From an uncultured Methanosarcinales archaeon (lineage in GTDB: Archaea; Nanobdellota; Nanobdellia; Woesearchaeales; JACPBV01): a stretch of DNA of 35,099 nucleotides. The stretch spans positions 1 through 35,099 of the forward strand of contig CAZBLF010000010.1 of the NCBI GenBank assembly GCA_964492935.1, written 5' to 3'. Positions 9,001-12,000 of this stretch are shown in pieces. Made by a program: the position numbers. Every line of letters starts with the position of its first letter. The first letter of the stretch is position 1.

Positions 9001-12000
9001 TTTTGTTGATTGTTGGGCTTTTTGGATGGTTGTTGCAGAAAGCATTTATGATGTATGTGCTGTTTGTTATCGTTCCAGTGTTTTTATTTTTTCTATCGGG
9101 TGTCGTGCATATCTCCCATTCGGCGTTTATTCATGGAGTTTCAAAAATAGGATTTCGTAGGAGTTGCAGCATTACTTTTAAGAAATATCGAGCATATGGT
9201 GCCTTTCTTTTCTGGGATTTATTATTTGTGGGTTTGTTTTATGTTCTTTTCAATGTGATTCACATCATTCTTCGGTATACACTCTTTTCGAATCAGGCTA
9301 TCGTTGCTAGACTTTCGCAGCCCTATATTTCAGTCATTAGTTTCGTTTCGTTTGTGTTTCTTTTCCTTATTCTGGGATTCAATCGCGTATACTTTTTAGA
9401 GGCGGATAGGAAGCATGTTTACTCATAATCTTGATCCGATTCTGCTTTCTTTTGGTTTTTTAGAGGTTCGATGGTATGGACTGATCTTTGCACTTGGTTT
9501 TATACTGATATATTATCTCCTTCCCTATCTAGCACAAAAGCGCGATATTGATTTTTCAAAAGAGGATGCTTCAGATTTCCTCCTCTACCTCATCCTTGGT
9601 GTAGTGCTTGGTGCGAGACTGTTTTACATCATCTTTTACAATCTTGGATACTTTATCCTAAATCCTTTAGACATTTTTGCAGTCTGGCAGGGCGGCTTAA
9701 GCTTTCATGGTGGCTTAGCCGGAGCCATGCTAGCCACATTTCTGTTTTGTAAAAAGAAAAAGATGCACTTCTATGATTTAGCAGATATCATCGTCATTCC
9801 TGCAGCTGCCGGTCTCATATTAGGACGCATCGCCAATTTCATCAATGGGGAGCTTGTAGGGAGAATAACCTCGATTCCCTGGTGTGTAAATTTTCCAGGG
9901 TACGAAGGATGCAGACACCCTTCTCAACTCTATGAAAGCGCAAAAAACGCAGTAATTTTCTTCATCCTTTGGCATCTAAAAGAAAAGAAACTAAGAAGAG
10001 GTATTCTCTTCTGGAGCTTTGTGGTGATGTATTCCACGTTAAGATTCTTCATCGGGTTTTTGAGAGCTCCTGACCCCCAGCTTGGATTACTAGCTTTAGG
10101 ACTAACCATGGGCCAATGGTTGAATATCGCGATGTTCGCTATTGGACTTGTTTACATCAGAAAGATTAATTCAACATCTTAGTATAAGCTGGCATCCATG
10201 ACTCATAGATCATAATCAAATGCTCATAATTCCTGATGACATGAGGAAACTGTTTCCGTAGATCATTTACAATCGCATTAAAGTGCTGATAGCTTTCGAC
10301 AGCAAATTCAAACTCAACCTCCCAGGGAGCCAATGAACGAATATAATAAAGCGAGTGAGGATGCGTTCTCATCCATTCAAACAGTGCATTTTCATCTTTC
10401 TCTGACAACGTACGAAAATAAATAATTAACTTATAAAATTCTAGATTGAGTTTGTTGAAGTCTATTTGCGTCCGGTAAGCCAATATAATCTCCTTTTCCT
10501 CAAGTTTCTTAATTTTCCCCCTCACAATATCAATCGTAGTATCAACTTCCCTAGCCAATGCTGCAAGCGGGATTCTTGCATTATTCGCCAAAATATTGAG
10601 AATCTTTTTGTCTGTTTCGTCAACTTCATTATTCTCTGTATTTCCACCAACCGTAATATAAGTTCCTTCCCCCTCATTCATAAAGAATTTCTTATTAAAC
10701 TGCCTCGTATCTACCATCGTCCCAAGAACTTTGTTTATAATCAGATGCTGCCATTTGGAAAGCAAGTGATTTATTTTAGCAAAGTATCCAGTCGTGCTGC
10801 GAGAAAGAATAGCAAAAACACAATCAAAAACACCATCTGATATCCCCATCCAGTAAATATCCGGATTTTTCTTAAGCTCCTCAAAAAATTTCTCCCTTTC
10901 ATCTGGAATGTTCTCTAATTTAAGGTAAACTTTAAACATCTGATATCCCAACTTATTAAGATTGATAGAGGTGATAAATCCAGTCAAGATTCCACGTTCT
11001 TGTAACTGGTGAATGCGATACTTTACAGCTTCTCTTGATTTGTTAACCTTTTTTGCTAGCTGGATATTAGAGATTCTACAGTTCTTATCAAGTTCCGACA
11101 GCAGTTTCCTATCTGTTTTGTCCAGTTTAATTTTCTCCATATACTCAACCGAAACAGTCTTTTATATATAAATATTTCCATAAAACGGTCAATTTTAGCC
11201 AAATAACTTAATATATTTGCTATGGCTTAGTAGTACCATGGCAAGTATTGATGACATTGTAGAAGATAAACAAGAAGTAGCTAATGATATCGATAGCTCC
11301 GCTAACACAAATAATCTAGAAGCAAAGGTAGAATCTGGCAGCATGCTAGGCCTAGCAGCAAAATCTCTTTTTGCAGGAGGATTAGTTGCAGCAACATATC
11401 CTATTGTAGGAGTATCCAGTCTTCTTACCTTCTTTGGGAACATGGCAGGATATATCATCGAAAAAAAGAAAGCCAAAGAAGAAATCAATAGCCATGAGCT
11501 TGTAAAAGAAGCTGGGACGGGAGCAGTCTTAGGTACCGTCGGTCACGGACTATATTCATTGATCGACATTATTCCAAATTATGATTGGACAATGAAGGTG
11601 GTGAAAACACTTGCATTTAATCCTCTGATGTTGGCACCGTATACTGCCTTCTATCAAACATTCACCTACTTACGAGACAAAGTAGGACTATGGAAAAGCG
11701 CAGCAGGAATGTTCAATCTTAAAATCGTTGATTACTTGAAGGAAGCCTACCAAAATGAGGTAAAGCCCAACTTCTTCAACGCTATGAAGAAGGTCATGAT
11801 GCTTTCACCTATCCATTTTGCGAGCATCAATTATGTGACCGATATCTGGAAGCGTGTAGGTATCGGAGTAGGAAATGATATAGCATTCAGGCTGTTCAAT
11901 AAGAAGGAAAAAGAAACCCAGATTGATCAGTTTCCAGCTCCGGCATACTCTCAAGCAGACCCTTATCGACGACAGGAGCAACCATTAGCTGCATAATGTT

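What a model noticed while it worked through the whole genome (the two positions that open the first line are those of the whole stretch)
9415..10182. Complete bacterial-type lipoprotein pathway (Lgt, LspA, Lit) in an archaeon
This archaeon encodes full-length, high-scoring homologs of bacterial prolipoprotein diacylglyceryl transferase Lgt (g00538), lipoprotein signal peptidase LspA (g00233, C3:40391-40867) and the transacylase Lit (g01172, C38:3645-4289), beside bacterial-type GpsA, PlsC-like acyltransferases and PgsA, and at least 29 proteins with a lipobox. I read this as a working bacterial lipoprotein route that hangs surface proteins on diacylglycerol made by the cell itself. A 2025 study of archaeal lipoproteins states that no archaeal homologs of Lgt or Lsp have been identified and proposes AliA/AliB; here, and in most Woesearchaeales, the bacterial enzymes are present.
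Evidence so far: g00538: Pfam LGT 243 bits over 238 of 240 positions, NCBIfam equivalog TIGR00544 207 bits (cut 119), 47.7% identity over 243 aa to Geobacter Lgt. g00233: Peptidase_A8 127 bits, TIGR00077 equivalog 109 bits (cut 74), 47.5% identity to Halothermothrix LspA. g01172: Pfam Lit 64 bits over 175 of 176 positions. PgsA g00935 (TIGR00560 equivalog), GpsA g00882. They lie on contigs with archaeal ribosomal or informational genes (C10 35 kb, C3 63 kb). relatives.tsv floors: LGT in 705 of 822 Woesearchaeales, 53% of Nanobdellota, 10% of Archaea; Peptidase_A8 688 of 822; Lit 612 of 822 against 7% of Bacteria. 29 lipobox proteins by my pattern, among them both CuA cupredoxins, g01035, g00318 and four in a [...]
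(Added by a program. Inside this text positions count along the whole contig: contig position 1 is position 1 of the stretch shown here. "Call 12" and the like, gene names such as g00115 and contig names such as C1 are that model's own, and its searches are not shown. The text may have been shortened before it was handed on; [...] marks where a part breaks off. The agent that wrote the report below was given it as the finding of a first reader that could run no searches.)

Follow-up and report, generated by a model that had tools for sequence, protein, structure and literature searches.

The report
Bacterial lipoprotein enzymes in DPANN archaea
This small archaeon and most of its relatives carry the bacterial enzymes that anchor surface proteins to membrane lipid, although the literature says archaea have none, and they lack the archaeal enzymes proposed for that job.

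Summary
Window 9415-10182 (+) encodes a full-length Lgt (Pfam 243.6 bits; TIGR00544 207.2, cut-off 118.9). It lies 5 kb from archaeal-type ribosomal protein genes on the same contig.

- **Same genome:** LspA with both catalytic aspartates, a weak Lit-family protein, PgsA and GpsA. I count 24 (strict rule) to 40 (loose rule) lipobox ORFs.
- **Relatives:** Lgt is in 189 of 201 sampled genomes of the order and LspA in 184 of 201, closed single-contig genomes included.
- **Archaeal alternative:** the AliA/AliB family (DUF63) is in 0 of 201. In a 151-genome phylum sample, DUF63 occurs only in 3 of the 10 genomes without Lgt.
- **Literature:** the 2025 paper does say no archaeal Lgt/Lsp homolog is known. 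Its own supplement shows 7 of 7 Woesearchaeota without AliA/AliB. NCBI records already name these proteins.

I found no ketoacyl synthase, GGGPS or G1P dehydrogenase. The CDP-lipid synthase is the archaeal CarS. PlsC-like genes are in only 23 of 61 relatives.

The window's Lgt has Gly where E. coli's essential E243 lies, though that site varies in the archaeal clade.

Verdict: a real pathway of bacterial origin, probably working, whose lipid donor is unknown.

The parts
9415..10182 (+). lgt: bacterial-type prolipoprotein diacylglyceryl transferase, 255 aa
   Evidence: PF01790 243.6 bits; TIGR00544 207.2 bits, cut-off 118.9; E. coli Lgt 5azb E 3.9e-43. The sites of E. coli Y26, H103, R143, N146, E151, G154, Y235 and R239 are kept.
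10054..10056 (+). GGG codon: Gly at the site of E. coli Lgt E243
   Evidence: Sequence read. The site is E in 30 of 30 relatives of the order, and G in 11 of the 120 closest database proteins. Contigs of runs X7 and X8 cover it with no differing letter, at depth 2.8. E243A/Q/R do not complement in E. coli (PMC4728403, passages).
8595..9428 (+). Unknown 6-TM membrane protein ('TMup'). It overlaps the lgt start by 14 nt, so the two genes are probably co-transcribed.
   Evidence: No Pfam or NCBIfam family. A homolog sits immediately upstream of lgt on the same strand in 41 of 99 distinct Lgt loci. AlphaFold2 model: pLDDT 91.3. Best fold matches: CysZ Z 12.3, CTL1 Z 12.2, PNS1 Z 11.9; the next is 8.3.
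172..4694 (-). Archaeal-type ribosomal protein genes S3, L22, S19, L2, L23, L4, L3. They are context showing that the contig is archaeal.
   Evidence: Pfam. NCBIfam archaeal equivalogs: L3_arch 321 bits, rpl4p_arch 275.8, uS19_arch 154.5, uS3_euk_arch 191.9.
10166..11140 (-). Convergent neighbour: a regulator with two Lrp/AsnC-type HTH domains. Not part of the pathway.
   Evidence: PF13404 80.2 bits, two stretches. A homolog is near lgt in only 2 of 110 loci, with 1.5-kb flanks.

Best explanation
The window encodes the first enzyme of a bacterial-type lipoprotein maturation route. An ancestor of this DPANN lineage (Woesearchaeota/Nanoarchaeota by the titles of the closest records) took the route from bacteria. 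It has since been inherited mostly vertically.

**Proposed steps**
1. Sec exports a precursor whose signal peptide ends in a lipobox.
2. Lgt moves the glyceryl-lipid moiety of a phosphatidylglycerol-type lipid onto the lipobox cysteine as a thioether.
3. LspA, an aspartyl peptidase, cuts off the signal peptide just before that cysteine.
4. A Lit-family membrane protein may remodel the anchor.

**Role and substrates.** The route stands in for AliA/AliB, which these genomes do not have. It anchors about two to three dozen surface proteins, among them cyclophilin, MsrAB, cupredoxins and a beta-propeller protein.

**Shown here:** the genes, their integrity, their distribution and the presence of substrates.

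**Inferred:** enzyme activity, and the lipid donor. My leaning for the donor is an ester-type PG built or remodelled from scavenged lipid or fatty acid, not lipid made de novo.
For: **Family scores and sites**
- Lgt and LspA exceed the curated equivalog cut-offs.
- In 70 archaeal Lgts, the sites of E. coli Y26, R143, N146, E151, G154 and R239 are kept in 70 of 70, and H103 in 69 of 70.
- LspA keeps the motifs VVDF and FNIADS with both catalytic Asp, aligned to 5dir and 6ryo.

**Not contamination**
- lgt shares a contig with archaeal ribosomal protein genes.
- Both genes lie in the single-contig genomes G016, G025 and G085.
- lgt lies on a 323-kb contig of a single-cell genome (L144).
- GC of lgt is 0.408, lspA 0.423 and lit 0.403, against an ORF mean of 0.425 with sd 0.025.

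**Distribution**
- Lgt is in 189 of 201 genomes of the order and LspA in 184 of 201. Only 2 of 201 lack both.
- Lgt is in 26 of 34 sampled genomes of other orders of the class.

**Inheritance**
- On the Lgt tree the family labels need 12 changes (minimum 8). The shuffled mean is 45.8, and 0 of 200 shuffles are as low.
- The tree that holds all 70 archaeal rows as one clade is 31.3 lnL better than the free search; p-AU 0.85.

**Complementarity with AliA/AliB**
- DUF63 is in 0 of 201 genomes of the order.
- In the phylum sample it is in 0 of 141 Lgt-positive genomes and 3 of 10 Lgt-negative ones.
- 7 of 7 Woesearchaeota rows read 0/0 in the 2025 paper's supplement.

**Substrates**
- 24 ORFs pass the strict lipobox rule, with Cys 13.5 times enriched at +1.
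- They include typical extracytoplasmic enzymes.

**Donor head group**
- A PgsA equivalog is present.
Against: - No activity, expression or lipid data exist for any of these proteins.
- The window's own Lgt has Gly at the E243 site, where E243A/Q/R abolish complementation in E. coli. The site does vary in the archaeal clade (E 48, D 16, N 3, T 2, G 1 of 70) but is E in 9 of 9 bacteria. So the network around R239 may work differently, or some copies may be impaired.
- Lit is only a family-level match.
- Bacterial sampling for the tree is thin: 9 sequences taken from plasmid records. The free quick tree nested Proteobacteria and Collinsella among the archaeal rows on weak forks.
- The lipid donor is open. 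The genome shows CarS but no CdsA, GGGPS, G1P dehydrogenase or ketoacyl synthase, and it is 84.8% complete.
- Lipobox proteins also occur in archaea that use AliA/AliB, so lipoboxes do not single out this route.
Confidence: 0.72

Rival explanations
1. The enzymes work, but on archaeal lipid. Lgt would transfer an archaeol (diether) moiety from archaetidylglycerol. That lipid would be made by CarS plus PgsA from isoprenoid lipid scavenged from a host. The result would be the thioether-archaeol anchor described for haloarchaeal lipoproteins.
For: - A CarS equivalog scores NF003114 150.4, cut-off 148. It sits beside two CDP-alcohol transferase domains on C3.
- No separate CdsA was found.
- PlsC-like genes are missing from 38 of 61 relatives at E<=1e-10, including closed genomes that have Lgt and LspA.
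- The E243, E202 and Y235 sites of the lipid pocket vary in the archaeal clade but not in the 9 bacteria.
Against: - No GGGPS or G1P dehydrogenase was found, so the core lipid would have to be imported.
- Y26 and R143 are invariant in 70 of 70. In E. coli they hydrogen-bond the ester oxygens of the sn-2 and sn-1 chains (PMC4728403, passages).
- Archaeal lipids have the opposite glycerol stereochemistry (established knowledge).
- A Lit-type transacylation needs an ester-linked chain (established knowledge), and the Lit family is in 68 of 81 relatives.
Confidence: 0.2
2. The homologs are kept for another role, or are decaying in this genome. The Gly at the E243 site would make this Lgt inactive, and lipobox proteins would be handled by an unknown system.
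For: - E243A/Q/R are dead in E. coli.
- The genome holds a single Lgt copy.
- The Gly codon is also present in other assemblies, so it is not a one-off error.
Against: - The ORF is full length with every other essential site intact.
- Gly recurs in 11 of the 120 closest proteins, in up to 7 separate groups on a FastTree. All of these are otherwise conserved.
- D, N and T also occur at this site in whole families, which points to a relaxed site and not to decay.
- LspA and the lipobox set are intact.
- No AliA/AliB is present to take over.
Confidence: 0.06
3. The bacterial-type genes are contaminating bacterial DNA binned or assembled into an archaeal genome.
For: - The genome is a 57-contig bin.
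- The proteins are 35-42% identical to bacterial Lgt.
Against: - lgt is on the same 35-kb contig as archaeal ribosomal protein genes.
- Its GC is typical of the genome.
- Estimated contamination is 0.13%.
- Lgt and LspA occur in closed single-contig genomes and in a single-cell genome.
- The closest 80 species-representative loci are all titled as archaeal.
Confidence: 0.02

Closest known systems
Bacterial Lgt (phosphatidylglycerol:prolipoprotein diacylglyceryl transferase; E. coli structure 5azb/5azc)
   Same: Full-length match to PF01790 and TIGR00544 above the cut-offs. It keeps the signature motif (GRIANFINGELVG against GRLGNFINGELWG), HGGL, Y26, R143, N146, E151, G154, Y235 and R239. Identity is 34.8% to E. 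coli and up to 42.1% to Collinsella Lgt.
   Different: The host is an archaeon. The window protein has Gly at the E243 site, and the archaeal clade varies at the E243, E202 and Y235 sites where 9 of 9 (Y235: 8 of 9) sampled bacteria are constant. In 41 of 99 loci it is paired with an unknown membrane protein. The lipid donor in the host is unknown.
Bacterial LspA (signal peptidase II; structures 5dir, 6ryo)
   Same: TIGR00077 108.9 bits, above the cut-off. It keeps both catalytic Asp motifs, the NTGAGFG motif and GNLIDR.
   Different: The host is archaeal. It is not adjacent to lgt: the two lie hundreds of kb apart in closed genomes.
AliA/AliB (arCOG02177/arCOG02178, DUF63), the archaeal lipoprotein lipidation proteins of Haloferax volcanii
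   Same: Same presumed cellular job, on lipobox proteins. The 2025 paper suggests that AliA may derive from the Lgt family (PMC12462473, passages).
   Different: A different family. It was not found in this genome, in 201 genomes of the order, or in any of 141 Lgt-positive genomes of the phylum sample.
Lit (lipoprotein intramolecular transacylase of Firmicutes)
   Same: Pfam Lit PF07314 at 64.1 bits over the whole profile. The family is in 68 of 81 relatives.
   Different: 34.1 bits against a cut-off of 400 on the NCBIfam Lit equivalog. It is a distant relative of unknown activity.

Membership tests
Lgt (PF01790 / TIGR00544) | Full-length profile match above the curated cut-offs | tested here: met
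   243.6 bits against 24.9; 207.2 against 118.9.
Lgt (PF01790 / TIGR00544) | Signature motif G142-G154 with R143, N146, E151 and G154, plus Y26 and H103GGL | tested here: met
   Alignment to 5azb. Invariant in 31 of 31 and in 69-70 of 70.
Lgt (PF01790 / TIGR00544) | R239-E243-R246 hydrogen-bond network (all three intolerant to mutation in E. coli) | tested here: not met
   R239 and R246 are kept. E243 is Gly in the window protein. It is E in 30 of 30 close relatives, and E48/D16/N3/T2/G1 in the phylum sample. This lowers the claim for this copy, not for the lineage.
Lgt (PF01790 / TIGR00544) | Seven-TM fold with periplasmic head and arms | not tested
   I made no model of the Lgt; the sequence aligns to 5azb over residues 5-247.
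Lgt (PF01790 / TIGR00544) | Transfers diacylglyceryl from PG to the lipobox Cys | not testable with these tools
   Needs an enzyme assay or complementation.
LspA (Peptidase_A8 / TIGR00077) | Profile match above the cut-offs and the catalytic Asp dyad | tested here: met
   127.5 bits and 108.9 against 73.95. The Asp of VVDF and of FNIADS align to those of 5dir. The dyad numbering D124/D143 is recalled.
Lit (PF07314 / NF051877) | Match to the curated equivalog of characterised Lit | tested here: not met
   34.1 bits against a cut-off of 400; TIGR01906 58.4 against 74.8. Only the Pfam family cut-off is met, at 64.1 bits.
AliA/AliB (DUF63, PF01889) | Presence of a DUF63 protein | tested here: not met
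   0 matches at E<=0.1 in the genome, which is 84.8% complete. 0 of 201 in the order. The control rings in 3 archaeal genomes.
Lnt (apolipoprotein N-acyltransferase) | Presence of an Lnt homolog | not tested
   No search was made.
CysZ / choline-transporter-like fold (for the upstream membrane protein) | Structural match over most of the protein | tested here: inconclusive
   Z 12.3, 12.2 and 11.9, with the next at 8.3. The tool warns that Z under about 13 for helical proteins may be a common arrangement. Foldseek's best E is 0.23.

The most novel reading that the evidence does not exclude
An entire archaeal lineage has swapped the archaeal lipoprotein lipidation system (AliA/AliB) for the bacterial Lgt/LspA pair, and the two systems exclude each other. 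If so, these host-dependent archaea either carry ester-type (bacterial-like) lipid in their membranes, or run a bacterial-family enzyme on ether lipid of the opposite stereochemistry. Either outcome bears on the lipid divide. In about four in ten lgt loci the gene is translationally coupled to a membrane protein of no known family with a CysZ/choline-transporter-like fold. That protein may supply or recycle the head-group side of the reaction, for example the glycerol phosphate that Lgt releases outside the cell.
Probability: 0.3. Interest if true: 0.85.

Novelty: new member of a known kind. Interest (0 to 1): 0.66.

Why it matters
[quoted passage not shown] The 2025 AliA/AliB paper repeats this for Lgt and Lsp (PMC12462473). 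Its explanation is that archaeal lipids need their own enzymes.

**What is found here.** One large, uncultured archaeal lineage has the bacterial enzymes and lacks AliA/AliB. This accounts for the 'gaps' in DPANN that the 2025 paper noted.

**What becomes testable.**
- Can a bacterial-family Lgt use archaeal lipid?
- Do these symbionts have bacterial-type lipids?

**Practical points.** Lipoprotein predictions for DPANN genomes should be read against Lgt/LspA. Globomycin-type inhibitors might act on these archaea.

**Limit on novelty.** Annotation pipelines already name these proteins in NCBI records. GpsA and PlsC in DPANN are in print (PMC6431249).

Tried and rejected
- **Complex prediction.** Complex prediction of Lgt (A1) with the upstream membrane protein (A2) gave no verdict: score 0.00 against a mark of 0.32. 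That is no evidence either way.
- **Foldseek.** The search of the upstream protein's model against the PDB gave no match at E<=0.001.
- **First ORF picking.** My first attempt to pick Lgt ORFs by length chose antisense frames. I discarded it and redid the step with phmmer.
- **Reads.** Read laying placed only short, unlike pieces for runs X1 and X3. Only X7 and X8 speak to the Gly codon, at depth 2.8. Their contigs are nearly the same length and depth, so they may be one data set.
- **Bacterial relatives.** The search for related loci in genome contigs returned only archaeal loci among its best 80, so it gave no bacterial outgroup. I took 10 bacterial Lgts from plasmid records instead. I left out the Sphingobium one, a 151-aa fragment. 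That is a thin and arbitrary sample, so I claim no donor lineage.
- **Free tree.** The free quick tree did not recover archaeal monophyly; the constrained search found a better tree.
- **Regular expressions.** A regex for the E243 site failed on divergent families. I replaced it with an alignment-based tally. A strict lipobox regex on cyclophilin homologs scored 45 of 120 but misses T or S at -3, and the hits mix bacteria and archaea, so I draw nothing from it. A composite LspA motif regex matched 10 of 13 loci; I did not inspect the three misses.
- **Literature searches that found no report of archaeal Lgt/LspA:**
  - 'prolipoprotein diacylglyceryl transferase' + DPANN: 3 papers, none reporting it.
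  - Woesearchae + 'lipoprotein signal peptidase': 0 papers.
  - Lgt/LspA/Woesearchaeota: the two papers among the 15 listed that hold both 'LGT' and Woesearchaeota; in the one I read, LGT means lateral gene transfer.
  - DPANN + 'lipoprotein signal peptidase': only the two versions of the AliA paper.
  - The library lacks most subscription journals, and bioRxiv supplements are closed.
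Full report
**What is at the coordinates**

The ORF 9415..10182 (+) encodes 255 aa.
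- It matches Pfam LGT at 243.6 bits over profile positions 1-238 of 240.
- It matches the NCBIfam equivalog TIGR00544 at 207.2 bits, cut-off 118.9.
- It matches the crystallised E. coli Lgt at E 3.9e-43.

The contig is archaeal. Genes for S3, L22, S19, L2, L23, L4 and L3 at 172-4694 (-) match archaeal or archaeal/eukaryotic equivalogs: L3_arch 321 bits, rpl4p_arch 275.8, uS19_arch 154.5, uS3_euk_arch 191.9.

The window is the whole of contig C10. The genome has 1.15 Mb in 57 contigs, and is 84.8% complete with 0.13% contamination.

The closest named database proteins are NCBI records. They read 'prolipoprotein diacylglyceryl transferase [Candidatus Woesearchaeota archaeon]' or '[Nanoarchaeota archaeon]'. 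This places the organism. It also shows that annotation pipelines already name the gene.

**The rest of the route in this genome**

LspA is at C3:40391-40867 (+).
- It scores PF01252 127.5 bits and TIGR00077 108.9, cut-off 73.95.
- Aligned to S. aureus and P. aeruginosa LspA, it keeps NTGAGFG, GNLIDR, VVDF and FNIADS, and so both catalytic aspartates.

The 'Lit' gene is at C38:3645-4304 (-).
- It reaches 64.1 bits on Pfam Lit.
- It reaches only 34.1 bits on NCBIfam's Lit equivalog (cut-off 400) and 58.4 on TIGR01906 (cut-off 74.8).
- It is therefore a distant family member, not a demonstrated Lit.

GC content is ordinary for the genome: lgt 0.408, lspA 0.423 and lit 0.403, against an ORF mean of 0.425 with sd 0.025. 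That argues against a recent arrival.

**Substrates**

I made a crude set of 1264 ORFs from the genome, taking the longest non-overlapping frames and using no gene caller.
- A strict rule gives 24 proteins. The rule requires a basic n-region, at least 7 uncharged residues, then [LVIFM][ASTVIG][GAS]C with the Cys at position 13-35.
- Cys makes up 1.09% of residues. Even so, it ties with Leu as the commonest residue after the box.
- Per unit of residue frequency, Cys is 13.5 times the mean of the other 19 residues and 5.8 times the highest of them.
- A looser PROSITE-like rule that allows alternative starts gives 40.

I scanned 20 of the 24 against Pfam, and 8 have families:
- a cyclophilin
- an MsrA-MsrB fusion
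- a PF09826 beta-propeller protein
- a PLD-like protein
- an alpha/beta hydrolase
- two cupredoxins
- an Ig-domain protein

These are typical extracytoplasmic proteins. Four lipobox ORFs are clustered on C33; three of them pass the strict rule.

**Distribution**

In 201 genomes sampled from the order:
- Lgt is in 189 (145 of 152 high-quality genomes; 161 of 170 genera).
- LspA is in 184.
- Only G052 and G110 lack both.
- Both genes lie in the single-contig genomes G016, G025 and G085, hundreds of kb apart.

These counts include four unpublished genomes: G183, G132, G112 and G121.

The Lit family is in 68 of 81 genomes of at least 90% completeness.

A 151-genome 'phylum' sample drew only genomes of the same class. 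In it, Lgt is in 141, including 26 of 34 genomes from other orders.

The best 80 loci among species-representative genomes are all titled as archaeal. They include a 323-kb contig of a single-cell genome.

**Relation to AliA/AliB**

I read passages of the 2025 paper. [quoted passage not shown] It defines AliA/AliB as arCOG02177 and arCOG02178.

Its supplement labels these arCOGs as supercluster COG01967, and its alignment names the proteins DUF63. In the presence table:
- 7 of 7 Woesearchaeota rows read 0/0.
- 22 of the 23 Pacearchaeota rows that I saw read 0/0.
- The same Woesearchaeota genomes have predicted lipoproteins, for example 12 of 42 secreted proteins.

I tested Pfam DUF63 directly:
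- No match in this genome. The control search rings in M. jannaschii, H. volcanii and M. acetivorans.
- 0 of 201 genomes of the order.
- 3 of the 151 genomes of the phylum sample: G221, G239 and G242.

All three are among the 10 genomes without Lgt. In these samples the two systems exclude each other. Related genomes are not independent, so I attach no statistic.

**Integrity of the enzyme**

I aligned 70 archaeal Lgts with 9 bacterial ones. The archaeal rows were the window protein, 29 best hits of the order, and 40 from seven named families, four of them outside the order.
- The sites of E. coli Y26, R143, N146, E151, G154 and R239 are kept in 70 of 70.
- H103 is kept in 69 of 70.

The window protein has Gly (codon GGG, 10054-10056) where E. 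coli has E243. In E. coli, E243A/Q/R fail to complement. The residue sits in a buried network with R239 and R246 (PMC4728403, passages).

Three observations bear on that Gly:
- Contigs of two other runs carry the same letters, at low depth and possibly from one data set.
- Among the 120 closest database proteins the site is E in 109 and G in 11. The G forms fall in up to 7 separate groups on a FastTree.
- Across the phylum sample the site is E 48, D 16, N 3, T 2, G 1, against E in 9 of 9 bacteria.

I read this as a relaxed site in the archaeal clade. It is still a defining feature that this copy does not meet.

**Inheritance**

The tree had 79 rows: 70 archaeal and 9 bacterial. The Sphingobium fragment was left out. 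The method was IQ-TREE, quick search, LG+C20.
- Families f44 (support 97), f129 (98) and f139 (88) are each one clade.
- 9 of 10 f95 rows form one clade.
- All labels together need 12 changes against a minimum of 8. The shuffled mean is 45.8, and 0 of 200 shuffles are as low.

The free search placed Proteobacteria, Collinsella and Fibrella among the archaeal rows on weak or open forks. A search that held the 70 archaeal rows together found a tree 31.3 log-likelihood units better, with p-AU 0.85.

A single archaeal clade is therefore the best tree found and is not rejected. With only nine bacterial sequences from plasmid records, I cannot name the donor.

**The lipid donor**

The genome has:
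- GpsA (NF000942, 393.3 bits), directly downstream of a PlsC-like acyltransferase on C21.
- Three more PF01553 hits, all below the TIGR00530 cut-off.
- A PgsA equivalog.
- A two-domain PgsA-like/PssA protein.
- An archaeal CarS equivalog at 150.4 bits, cut-off 148.

It shows none of the following:
- A CdsA apart from the CarS ORF.
- A GGGPS; the best hit is HisA.
- A G1P dehydrogenase; the two Fe-ADH_2 hits are AroB and a generic alcohol dehydrogenase.
- A ketoacyl synthase, although that search rings in 14 of 14 control genomes.

PlsC-like genes are in only 23 of 61 genomes of the order at E<=1e-10. They are missing from the closed genomes G016 and G025, which do have Lgt and LspA.

So the claim that the cell hangs proteins on diacylglycerol it makes itself is not supported. 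The hydrophobic part is most likely scavenged.

I lean to an ester-type donor, at roughly 55 to 25 with the rest unknown. The reasons are:
- Y26 and R143, which contact the ester oxygens in E. coli, are invariant.
- The enzyme is 35-42% identical to bacterial Lgts.
- The Lit family is widespread in the order.

This is inference. GpsA in Woesearchaeota and PlsC/PlsY in DPANN are already published (PMC6431249, passages). A Woesearchaeota genomics paper notes the lack of GGGPS and DGGGPS and does not mention lipoproteins (PMC8421398, passages).

**The gene upstream**

The ORF 8595-9428 (+) encodes a 277-aa protein with six hydrophobic segments. It overlaps the lgt start by 14 nt and has no Pfam or NCBIfam family.
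- After iterating an HMM, I found a homolog on the same strand in 44 of 99 distinct Lgt loci. In 41 of them it is immediately upstream, with a gap of -32 to +176 nt and most often 4 nt.
- The loci examined are the ones closest to the window's Lgt, so this is a feature of a sub-lineage.
- The AlphaFold2 model was built from 38 rows, one of them from unpublished G132. It is confident: pLDDT 91.3, pTM 0.83.
- Its three best structural matches stand apart from the rest: CysZ Z 12.3, choline transporter-like protein 1 Z 12.2, yeast PNS1 Z 11.9, with the next at 8.3. The tool warns that such Z values can arise from common helical arrangements.
- Its GC is 0.349, z -2.99.

Its function is unknown. 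A transporter role tied to the head-group side of the Lgt reaction is speculation.

**Verdict**

The complementarity with AliA/AliB strengthens it.

The lipid-source claim and the Lit assignment do not hold as stated. This genome's Lgt also carries an unusual residue at an essential site.

The enzymes are known families, and databases already name them. I therefore rate the finding as a new member of a known kind. It is of real interest to archaeal cell-surface and lipid-divide research.

Noticed in passing
window 8595-9428 (+): An unknown 6-TM protein overlaps the lgt start. A homolog sits immediately upstream of lgt in 41 of 99 distinct loci. It has no family. Its confident model best matches the CysZ and choline-transporter-like folds. 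Its GC is 0.349, z -2.99 against the genome's ORFs.
   Followed up: partly
L122:1-1278 (+): In this locus one open frame runs through both the upstream membrane protein and Lgt: 426 aa, open at the locus start. It may be a fusion or a sequencing error.
   Followed up: no
window 10054-10056, and proteins P0005, P0008, P0020, P0027, P0038, P0039, P0042, P0049, P0109, P0117: Among the 120 closest Lgts, the site of E. coli E243 is only ever Glu (109) or Gly (11). The Gly forms fall in up to 7 separate groups on a FastTree. This points to repeated single-base toggling at one essential-site codon.
   Followed up: partly
G000:C3:14751-16932 (+): A lipid cluster on contig C3. An archaeal CarS equivalog is followed by a 206-aa ORF, and then by a 342-aa protein with two CDP-alcohol phosphatidyltransferase domains (PgsA-like, then PssA/archaetidylserine synthase-like). 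No GGGPS or G1P dehydrogenase was found in this genome.
   Followed up: partly
G000:C1:53492-54913 (-): My ORF call joins a PlsC-like acyltransferase domain (residues 31-153) to an NrdG-type radical-SAM activase domain (residues 244-432) in one 473-aa frame. I did not check whether this is a true fusion.
   Followed up: no
G082:C2:151059-152023 (+): In one relative, lspA (151059-151448) is followed within 140 nt by a PlsC-like acyltransferase gene (151589-152023).
   Followed up: no
G000:C33:2471-6759 (-): Four consecutive lipobox proteins of 322-378 aa lie here. Three pass the strict rule. The three scanned have no Pfam family.
   Followed up: partly
window 31107-35099 (+): An ORF of at least 1331 aa with no Pfam family is cut by the contig end. 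It has a hydrophobic N-terminus that meets only the loose lipobox rule.
   Followed up: no
L072, L074, L075 and other TPA records: Many records whose Lgt is 55-62% identical to the window's are titled 'uncultured Methanosarcinales archaeon'. They sit among Woesearchaeota and Nanoarchaeota records, so the label looks like a mislabel in the submission.
   Followed up: no
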